Of a stretch of DNA of 64,000 nucleotides, positions 57,326 to 59,126 are shown in pieces (the first letter of the stretch is position 1; each line of letters starts with the position of its first letter). The stretch lies in assembly GCF_009914755.1 (NCBI RefSeq), contig NC_060928.1. The stretch is one strand, 5' to 3'. Made by a program: the position numbers and the translations under genes. The notes below the pieces were generated by a model. That model had not been told where the DNA came from and did not search any database. It saw nothing but the letters and a program-made list of their open reading frames with translations. The stretch comes from the human T2T-CHM13v2.0 reference genome, Homo sapiens.

Positions 57326-58554
57326 GTGATTCTTTTGGAAATGTTAACAGAGATAATTTCTATTGAAGTTGGTGCTGGTTTCTGGGGAAAACATCATGAA
57401 AGTAAGAGTATAAAAGTATTTCCTGCATTTACAGCATTTGGATGATTTACTTCAATCAAGAAATATTTAGTGAGGGCTAGGGTTGGTTCCAAGTCTTTGC
57501 TATTGTGAATAGTGCCGCAATAAACATACATGTGCATGTGTCTTTAGAGCAGCATGATTTATAATCCTTTCGGTATATACCCAGTAATGGGATGGCTAGG
57601 TCAAATGGTATTTCTAGTTCTAGATCTTTGAGGAATCACCACACTGTCTTCCACAATGGTTGAACTAGTTTACAGTCCCACCAACAGTGTAAAAGTGTTC
57701 CTATTTCTCCACATCCTCTCCAGCACCTGTTGTTTCCTGACTTTTTAATGATCACCATTCTAACTGGTATGAGATGGTATCCCATTGTGGTTTTGATTTG
57801 CATTTCTCTGATGGCCAGTGCTGATGAACATTTTTTCATGTGTCTGTTGGCTGCATAAATGTCTTCTTTTGAGAAGCGTCTGTTCATATCCTTCACCCAC
57901 TTGTTGATGGGGTTGTTTTTTTCTGGTAAATTTGTTTGAGTTCTTTGTAGATTCTGGATATTAGTCCTTTGTCAGATGAGTAGATTGCAAACGTTTTTTC
58001 CCATTCTGTAGGTTGCCTGTTCACTCTGATGGTAGTTTCTTTTGCTGTGCAGAAGCTCTTTAGTTTAATTAGATCCCATTTGTCAATTTTGTCTTTTGTT
58101 GCCATTGCCTTTAGTGTTTTAGACATGAAGTCCTTGCCCATGCCTATGTCCTGAATGGTATTGCCTAGGTTTTCTTCTAGGGTTTTTATGGTTTTAGGAA
58201 CTTAAAGTATAATAAAAATAAATAAATAAATAAAAAGAATTGAAAGGGGGAAAAAAGAGAGAATGTCAAAAGACAGAGGGAAGGGGGGATTACAAAGAGC
58301 TGCTCCTACTGCATTCTTTTTATATTAATGGTTAGTGAATACCAGTGTTAGACGTTCACATCACAGTACAAATAAGATGATTTGATTTTAATTTTTAGAC
58401 AAAAGTAGTCTTTCTGCATTCTAGGTCATGCTGATAAAACCTTTTTTGAAAACCAAACTATTCATATAGTCTGTACCAAGCCTTACCTATACATGCAGCT
58501 AGAAAATACCTAGAGGACTTTATTCGTTAACAAATTATCACACATGCATGCTGC

Positions 58555-58757
58555 TCAGAGAGTATGTTTAAGATAGTGGTTAAAAGCACAGGCTCTGAAG
58601 CCATACTGCCTGAGTTTGTTTCCTTTCTGTGCCACTTTTCTATCTCTGTAACTCTTGTCAACTTGCCACTCTCTCTGTACTTCCATTCCTTCACCTGAGA
58701 ACTGATAAGAGTAGGACTTACTACATAGGATGTTGTGAGGATGTTGTAAAGCATTTA
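58555..58757 (+). mobile_element. MIR (within the transduced segment)
   Basis: gatagtggttaaaagcacaggctctgaagcca..ctgcctgagttt..catagga tgttgtgaggat. Confidence 0.75.
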
Positions 58758-58864
58758 TTATTTGGTTCTATATTCAGTCTATTCTGATAACTAAGCAGTT
58801 GGGAGCAGAAATGAAAGACTTTAATTTCTAGGAGTTTTATCTCTGAAATTCTATCTCCTCTAAC

Positions 58865-59068
58865 CTGGAAGAGCTTCTATTCTCTGCCCCTATGGCACCC
58901 TGTGCCACCCCCACCATAGCATATGTTACTGTGCAGTATCTATTGCCTCTCCCACCTACATTAAACTGTAAGCTTCATGAGGACAAAATGTGTGTCTATT
59001 TTATAATCATTATTGCTTCAATGCCTAGCATATAGGTTGTACTCGGTAAATATTTATTGGATGAATGT
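58865..59068 (+). mobile_element. L2 3' end (within the transduced segment)
   Basis: aactgtaagcttcatgaggaca..tgcctagcatatag..gtaaatatttattggatgaatg. Confidence 0.75.
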
Positions 59069-59126
59069 TAAATAAAATGTATTAAAAGAAATATCACAAA
59101 TAAAAAAAGAAATATTTAGTGAGGGC

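What the first reader, a model, noticed from the sequence alone, without database searches (positions are those of the whole stretch)
57458..59126. L1 insertion with a 5' inversion and an ~860-bp 3' transduction of foreign DNA
Seen: an identical 20-mer (aagaaatatttagtgagggc) brackets 1.63 kb. Inside are 719 bp of antisense L1 ORF2, only the last ~15 nt of L1 in sense (aacttaaagtataat) with its A-rich tail, ~860 bp of non-L1 DNA (unique + MIR + L2 end), then aataaa/attaaa (59071, 59081) and a second A tail. Removing the block restores a continuous L2. Measured against the L1 at 264-3354, ~380 bp of L1 is missing at the inversion. Known: read-through 3' transduction and twin priming each make such structures. 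Inference: 58237-59097 is a copy of another locus and tags the source L1. A repeat annotation would list it as unrelated L1, MIR and L2 pieces.
Basis: partly seen in the sequence, partly recalled or inferred. Interest (0 to 1): 0.8.

Follow-up and report, generated by a model that had tools for sequence, protein, structure and literature searches.

The report
Inverted L1 insertion carrying copied chr5 DNA
This is one old L1 retrotransposon insertion with an inverted front half that also carried about 840 bases copied from chromosome 5 and about 26 from chromosome 20, an ordinary kind of event whose source L1 elements are no longer present in this genome.

Summary
An exact 20-bp duplication (57458-57477 and 59107-59126) brackets 1.63 kb. 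The block holds 719 bp of antisense L1 ORF2, the last 15 nt of L1 in sense with an A-rich tail, about 865 bp of non-L1 DNA, two poly(A) signals and a 4-nt A tail.

The key prediction is half met. Window 58264-59102 has exactly one paralog in this genome, at chr5:94,182,766-94,183,602 on the minus strand, 95% identical. The chr5 copy runs on into unique DNA where the chr4 copy has its A tail and duplication. So chr5 is the parent and chr4 is the retrocopy.

No L1 lies upstream of the chr5 parent in this assembly. In addition, the 27 nt between the L1 tail and the chr5 part match chr20:9,395,920-9,395,945, again with no L1 beside them. No sibling copies exist.

I read this as one L1 target-primed insertion, about 20-25 Myr old, inverted by twin priming. 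Two routes for the foreign DNA are close in likelihood. One is two stacked read-through 3' transductions from source L1s that were never fixed (about 0.5). The other is a reverse-transcriptase template switch between RNAs (about 0.35).

This is a known kind of event and of modest interest.

The parts
57458..57477 (+). 5' copy of the target-site duplication (20 bp). The bottom-strand nick site reads TCTT|GA, pyrimidine-rich|purine like the L1 endonuclease consensus.
   Evidence: Exact repeat of 59107-59126.
57478..57479 (.). Two bases (TA) that fit neither the target (AT) nor L1 (TT).
   Evidence: In one search, 29 of the 39 non-self L1 hits start at query base 3.
57480..58198 (-). Inverted L1 segment from the C-terminal part of ORF2, lying about 400-1120 nt from the L1 3' end. 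It starts with GGGTTG, which is also found in the target 2 nt beyond the duplication.
   Evidence: 94.2% and 92.8% to the two window L1s; ORF2p residues 1063-1158, E 7.8e-56.
58199..58213 (+). Last 15 nt of L1 in sense (AACTTAAAGTATAAT).
58214..58236 (+). A-rich (TAAA)n L1 tail. The last AATAAA is at 58229-58234.
   Evidence: One search found three other matches that start at the L1 3' end and run 36-46 nt.
58235..58261 (+). 27 nt matching chr20:9,395,920-9,395,945 (minus strand), 26 of 27 with one indel in an A run.
   Evidence: At up to 3 mismatches the 26-mer had 7 other hits, all with exactly 3 mismatches, and the control had 2.
58259..59102 (+). Retrocopy of chr5:94,182,766-94,183,607 (minus strand). 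It holds unique DNA, a MIR-like repeat and an L2-like 3' end.
   Evidence: 842 aligned, 41 mismatches, K2P 0.050.
59071..59086 (+). Poly(A) signals AATAAA (59071) and ATTAAA (59081; AATAAA in chr5), lying 26 and 16 nt before the end of chr5 homology.
59103..59106 (+). A4 tail, absent from chr5, where TTAGAG follows instead.
59107..59126 (+). 3' copy of the target-site duplication.
59127..59134 (+). Target bases ATGGGTTG. GGGTTG equals the first six bases of the inverted L1 piece, which is the microhomology for internal priming.
   Evidence: (D2: 28 nt, 93%).

Best explanation
One L1 endonuclease and reverse-transcriptase (target-primed reverse transcription) event inserted the whole block into an old L2-like repeat about 20-25 Myr ago.

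First-strand synthesis started at the poly(A) of an RNA. It copied 844 nt of chr5 sequence, 26 nt of chr20 sequence, the L1 A-rich tail and 15 nt of L1, and then stopped.

The other end of the break primed inside the same L1 RNA, helped by a GGGTTG match, and copied 719 nt. This is twin priming. Joining the two cDNAs gave the inversion and left 383-385 nt of L1 out.

Most likely the RNA was a read-through transcript with two stacked 3' transductions:
1. An L1 at chr20:9.396 Mb was polyadenylated 27 nt past the last AATAAA in its tail, and its copy landed at chr5:94,183,607.
2. That copy read through 840 nt to the next AATAAA, and its copy landed here.

Neither intermediate L1 was fixed in the population.

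Shown: a single event, the inversion, and chr5 as the parent locus. Inferred: the two lost source elements.
For: - Exact 20-bp duplication with a TCTT|GA nick site.
- L1 mapping and a 383-385 nt gap between the pieces.
- Six-nt GGGTTG shared by the target and the L1 priming site.
- One paralog only, at chr5, 95% identical, with no A tail and with canonical AATAAA 14-24 nt before the end of homology.
- The chr20 match is far beyond chance-level hits.
- The chr20 piece ends 27 nt after the last AATAAA of the tail, the usual cleavage distance.
- The chr5 homology starts at TTTC|GA, an endonuclease-like site.
- The L1 piece is 95-96% identical to its best genomic relatives, and the chr4/chr5 pair is 95.1% identical, so both parts are equally old.
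- A passage in a 2024 preprint reports that internal deletions accompany 66% of twin-primed inversions, and that partnered transductions are common (10.1101/2024.08.27.596794).
Against: - No L1 within 9 kb upstream of the chr5 parent.
- No L1 within 1.5 kb of the chr20 match.
- The only nearby chr5 L1 is 2.5 kb downstream and in the wrong orientation.
- No A tract separates the chr20 and chr5 pieces, so the intermediate insertion would have needed an almost tail-less priming.
- Both parents carry AACTG at the joint, which looks like switch microhomology.
- No sibling carries the chr20 tag.
- The 384-nt internal deletion is far above the 14.5-bp median reported for tumour insertions.
Confidence: 0.5

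Rival explanations
1. Template-switch (or RNA-ligation) chimera. L1 reverse transcriptase began on an independent polyadenylated chr5 transcript and copied about 840 nt. It then jumped at a short microhomology to a second RNA. That RNA was either an L1 read-through transcript from a lost chr20 L1, or a short chr20 RNA followed by an L1 poly(A) tail. Twin priming on the L1 RNA made the inversion. No L1 ever sat at chr5.
For: - No L1 at the chr5 parent.
- No A tract at the chr20/chr5 joint.
- AACTG is present in both parents exactly at the joint.
- The chr5 piece uses its own AATAAA.
- Template switching and RNA ligation are accepted routes to L1 chimeras (passages of PMC13174262, and PMC4476161).
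Against: - Described chimeras put L1 at the 3' end and the other RNA at the 5' end (passages). Here the order is reversed.
- The product reads GAGAG-AA-TGTC, not the expected GAGAGCAACTGTC, so two extra one-base losses are needed.
- The end of the chr20 piece sits at the cleavage distance from AATAAA, and the chr5 start sits at an endonuclease-like site. Both would be coincidences.
- 3' transduction is far more common (35% of somatic events in the passage seen).
Confidence: 0.35
2. A single 3' transduction from one lost chr5 source L1. On this reading the 22-27 nt purine-rich stretch is only a degenerate part of that L1's tail, and the chr20 match is chance.
For: The stretch is A/G-rich and follows an A-rich tail. 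The 20-mer with up to 2 mismatches is only modestly enriched over its control, 140 against 93.
Against: An exact 20-mer that extends to 26 of 27 nt is far from the chance background. At up to 3 mismatches the 26-mer had 7 other hits, all with exactly 3 mismatches, and the control had 2. The 29-mer had none besides itself, and its control had 0. My rough estimate of chance is 1e-4 to 1e-3.
Confidence: 0.07
3. Separate events: a processed retrocopy and an L1 landing side by side, or a DNA-level duplication between chr4 and chr5.
For: None specific.
Against: - One exact duplication brackets everything, and no inner duplications were found.
- The chr4 copy ends in an A tail exactly where chr5 runs on.
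- The L1 and non-L1 parts show equal divergence.
Confidence: 0.03

Closest known systems
L1 3' transduction (partnered, stacked)
   Same: Non-L1 DNA follows the L1 tail in sense. It ends at a downstream AATAAA with a new A tail, and the whole block is flanked by one target-site duplication. The parent locus is on another chromosome. The length (about 840 nt) lies inside the 7-997 nt range reported in PMC9311842 (abstract seen).
   Different: No source L1 survives at either parent locus. There is no A tract between the two stacked pieces. There are no siblings.
[quoted passage not shown]
   Same: An inverted 5' piece joined to a sense 3' piece of the same L1, an internal deletion, and microhomology between the target end and the internal priming site.
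   Different: The internal deletion is 383-385 nt against a reported median of 14.5 bp. Only 15 nt of L1 lie in the sense arm.
L1 template-switch chimeras (U6/L1 and mRNA/L1; PMC4476161 and PMC13174262, passages)
   Same: Several RNA sources in one insertion with one duplication, same orientation, and short overlap at the joint.
   Different: In those cases L1 is the 3' partner. Here a cellular sequence is 3' and L1 is 5'. The locus was not found in the held supplement tables of PMC13174262, searched by hg38 coordinates that I recalled and that are approximate.

Membership tests
L1 target-primed insertion | Target-site duplication flanking the whole insert | tested here: met
   20 of 20 identical. 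0 of 100 shuffles gave 2 or more matches.
L1 target-primed insertion | Endonuclease-like nick site and a 3' A tail | tested here: met
   TCTT|GA on the bottom strand. The A4 tail at 59103-59106 is absent from the chr5 parent. The tail is very short.
Twin priming | Inverted upstream L1 piece joined to a sense 3' piece, with a deletion or duplication at the joint | tested here: met
   L1 positions 2682->1964 are inverted and the sense piece starts at 3066. The gap is 383-385 nt.
Twin priming | Complementarity between the target overhang and the internal priming site | tested here: met
   GGGTTG is shared by the target (59129-59134) and the start of the L1 antisense piece. Two bases between it and the duplication do not fit.
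3' transduction | Transduced DNA has a parent locus that lacks the A tail and ends at a poly(A) signal | tested here: met
   The chr5 paralog is 95% identical, carries AATAAA twice, and has TTAGAG where chr4 has the A tail.
3' transduction | An L1 directly upstream of the parent locus in the same orientation | tested here: not met
   No L1 in 9 kb upstream at chr5 and none within 1.5 kb at chr20. This was tested in this one assembly only, and a lost, unfixed source cannot be excluded.
3' transduction | Sibling insertions sharing the tag | tested here: not met
   Only the window itself was found. Of the 140 near-matches to the 20-mer, 30 loci were inspected and none follows the L1PA-type 3' end seen in the window.
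Template-switch chimera | Joint without an A tract, with microhomology between the two parent sequences | tested here: inconclusive
   There is no A tract. AACTG is in both parents, but the product reads AATG.
Template-switch chimera | Independent transcript from the 3' partner locus | not testable with these tools
   No annotation or expression data for chr5:94.18 Mb were available.

The most novel reading that the evidence does not exclude
The block is a multi-template chimera. L1 reverse transcriptase started on a cellular chr5 RNA, jumped through a 26-nt chr20 fragment onto an L1 RNA, and was twin-primed. That would be a chimera with the cellular RNA at the 3' end and L1 at the 5' end. Repeat annotation and existing chimera catalogues, which look 5' of L1, would misfile such events as 3' transductions.
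Probability: 0.35. Interest if true: 0.45.

Novelty: new member of a known kind. Interest (0 to 1): 0.27.

Why it matters
It is a clean worked example of an L1 moving unrelated DNA between chromosomes (chr5 and chr20 to chr4) and scrambling itself in the same event. It also shows that an apparent 3' transduction can lack any surviving source element. That bears on how source L1s are traced and on how often template switching is mistaken for read-through. It lies in a gene desert, and no functional consequence is indicated.

Tried and rejected
- Splicing as the origin of the joints was rejected. No AG precedes the start of chr5 homology and no GT follows the chr20 piece. No copy of the 20-, 26- or 29-mer lies near chr5:94 Mb.
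- The chr20 motif is not part of a repeat family. It shows no homology beyond the motif with 28 near-match loci.
- The chr5 L1 at 94,174,698-94,180,260 was rejected as the source. It lies downstream and in the wrong orientation, and is only 90.5% identical.
- Pfam gave no hit for the three ORF2 fragments. The solved-structure search did give a hit.
- The Ostertag and Kazazian 2001 paper is not held.
- The L1 subfamily could not be named, because no consensus library is available.
- No primate outgroups are held, so the empty-site test was not run.

Full report
**Observation.** The 20-mer AAGAAATATTTAGTGAGGGC occurs exactly twice in the window, at 57458-57477 and 59107-59126. With up to two mismatches allowed, 0 of 100 dinucleotide shuffles gave two matches. 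The repeat finder extends the pair to 28 nt at 93% (D2). The base before the left copy is C. The nick site on the bottom strand therefore reads TCTT|GA, which is pyrimidine-rich|purine like the L1 endonuclease consensus (the consensus is recalled).

**The L1 parts.**
- Against the sense L1 at window 264-3400, bases 57480-58198 align in reverse at 94.2% over 719 nt (L1 positions 2682->1964).
- Bases from 58199 onward align forward to L1 positions 3066-3091, the very 3' end.
- Against the L1 at 22600-28900 (reverse complement) the figures are 92.8%, 5837->5116 and 6223.
- Minus-strand frames of 102, 111 and 52 codons tile the inverted piece.
- The 111-codon frame matches LINE-1 ORF2 protein residues 1063-1158 of 1275 (E 7.8e-56). 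Pfam gave nothing.
- The sense piece is 15 nt (58199-58213), followed by a 23-nt (TAAA)n tail.

**The inversion joints.** The target reads GAGGGC-AT-GGGTTG-CTGG just after the duplication. The insert reads GAGGGC-TA-GGGTTG-GTTCC. L1 antisense reads CATTT-GGGTTG-GTTCC. So a six-base match lies between the target end and the internal L1 site. This is what twin priming expects, according to passages citing Ostertag and Kazazian 2001 in PMC4476161 and the model description in preprint 10.1101/2024.08.27.596794. The two bases TA fit neither source. The inversion joint itself (TTTTAGG|AACTT) shows no overlap.

**The foreign DNA has a parent on chr5.** A search of the window's own assembly with 58237-59097 gave 13 matches: the window itself, one strong paralog, and 11 short weak hits.
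- The paralog is at chr5:94,182,771-94,183,602 on the minus strand, 95% identical over query 28-861.
- Ten of the 11 weak hits fall at query 325-421 and one at query 150-203. Identities are 77-90%, typical of an interspersed repeat.
- BLAST puts the paralog at 95.1% over 839 nt.
- At the 3' end both copies read ...ATATCACAAATA. chr4 then has AAAA plus the duplication, while chr5 continues TTAGAGTG into unique DNA.
- chr5 has AATAAA twice, 24 and 14 nt before that point.

chr5 is therefore the parent and chr4 a polyadenylated retrocopy. The pair differs at 41 of 842 aligned sites (21 transitions, 20 transversions, one 2-column gap), giving K2P 0.050. That is about 21-25 Myr at 1.0-1.2e-9 per site per year (the rates are recalled). 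The inverted L1 piece is 95-96% identical to its best relatives among the 40 scored of 6232 candidates. The L1 and non-L1 parts therefore look equally old.

**No source L1 at chr5.**
- I read 19 kb around the chr5 paralog and compared it with the whole window, which holds several L1s.
- In the 9.4 kb upstream of the paralog, taken in its own orientation, there are only Alu-like matches and one old, weak antisense L1-like fragment (about 69% identity).
- The sequence just upstream has no L1 end and no A tract.
- The only substantial L1 is 2.5 kb downstream and antisense, so its read-through would carry the paralog in the wrong orientation.
- No other copy of the 861 bp exists in the genome, so there are no siblings.

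**A second donor on chr20.** chr5 homology starts at window 58259-58264, which leaves 22-27 nt after the L1 tail unexplained.
- The 29-mer 58237-58265 is unique at up to 3 mismatches, and its control gave 0.
- The 20-mer 58235-58254 has one other exact copy, at chr20:9,395,926-9,395,945 on the minus strand.
- Alignment extends this to 26 of 27 nt, with one indel in an A run (window 58235-58261).
- The 26-mer has 7 other hits at up to 3 mismatches, all with exactly 3, and its control has 2. From this I estimate a chance exact hit at about 1e-4 to 1e-3.
- There is no L1 within 1.5 kb of the chr20 site.
- The motif is not part of a repeat shared with 28 near-match loci.
- None of the 30 inspected near-match loci follows the L1PA-type 3' end seen in the window.
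- A pattern joining the L1 end to the tag finds only the window.

**The chr20/chr5 joint.** The window reads GAGAG-AA-TGTCAAAA. chr20 reads GAGAG-CAACTG-GGG. chr5 reads TCGAAACTG-TCAAAA. There is no A tract. Both parents carry AACTG, but the product does not keep it intact.

**Mechanism.** It is firmly shown that this is one target-primed event with twin priming, and that the chr5 part is a retrocopy. How the pieces became linked is inferred.

Points for two stacked read-through transductions from L1s that were never fixed:
- The chr20 piece ends 27 nt after the last AATAAA of the tail.
- chr5 homology begins at an endonuclease-like TTTC|GA.
- The present insertion itself has only a 4-nt tail, so an almost tail-less intermediate is conceivable.
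- Transduction is common: 35% of somatic events in the passage seen, and lengths of 7-997 nt in the abstract seen.

Points for reverse-transcriptase template switching or RNA ligation:
- Neither parent has an L1.
- There is no A tract at the joint.
- AACTG is shared at the joint.
- These routes to L1 chimeras are accepted (passages), although the described chimeras have L1 as the 3' partner.

I put these at about 0.5 and 0.35. The 384-nt internal deletion is large against the 14.5-bp median seen in tumours, but it is within the model.

**Flanks.** With the block removed in a script, the reverse complement of the rejoined flanks aligns across the junction to the L2-like 3' end inside the chr5-derived part. 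The score is 35 against 24.1 +/- 4.1 for shuffles, and 9 of 500 shuffles reached it (the inverted repeats I1 and I3 say the same). The family names are recalled.

**Prior description.** The locus was not found in the six held supplement files of PMC13174262, searched by hg38 coordinates that I recalled. One further file was too large to read. This is weak evidence only.

**Verdict.** It is a known kind of event. The source L1 is not recoverable from this genome, and the read-through interpretation is not proven.

Noticed in passing
L009/L010: chr5:94,174,698-94,180,260: A roughly 5.6-kb L1 lies 2.5 kb downstream of the chr5 parent segment, in the opposite orientation. It is 84.7-89.0% identical to the window's L1s and 90.5% identical to the inverted L1 piece. 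It is not the source.
   Followed up: partly
window 57451-57474 and 59042-59065: The insertion target and the end of the chr5-derived piece are both L2-like 3' ends in opposite orientation, giving a 24-nt, 79% inverted repeat across the block (I1).
   Followed up: partly
window 22600-28900 and 264-3400: Two larger L1 copies lie in the window, one about 6.2 kb and antisense, the other about 3.1 kb and sense. They are 92.8% and 94.2% identical to the inverted piece and were used only as rulers.
   Followed up: no
window 58199-58244: In one search the three best non-self matches start at the L1 3' end and run 36-46 nt (chr6:138,870,925, chr4:159,211,871 and chrX:66,603,714, at 89-97%). That length takes them into the tail. 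None carries the chr20 tag.
   Followed up: no
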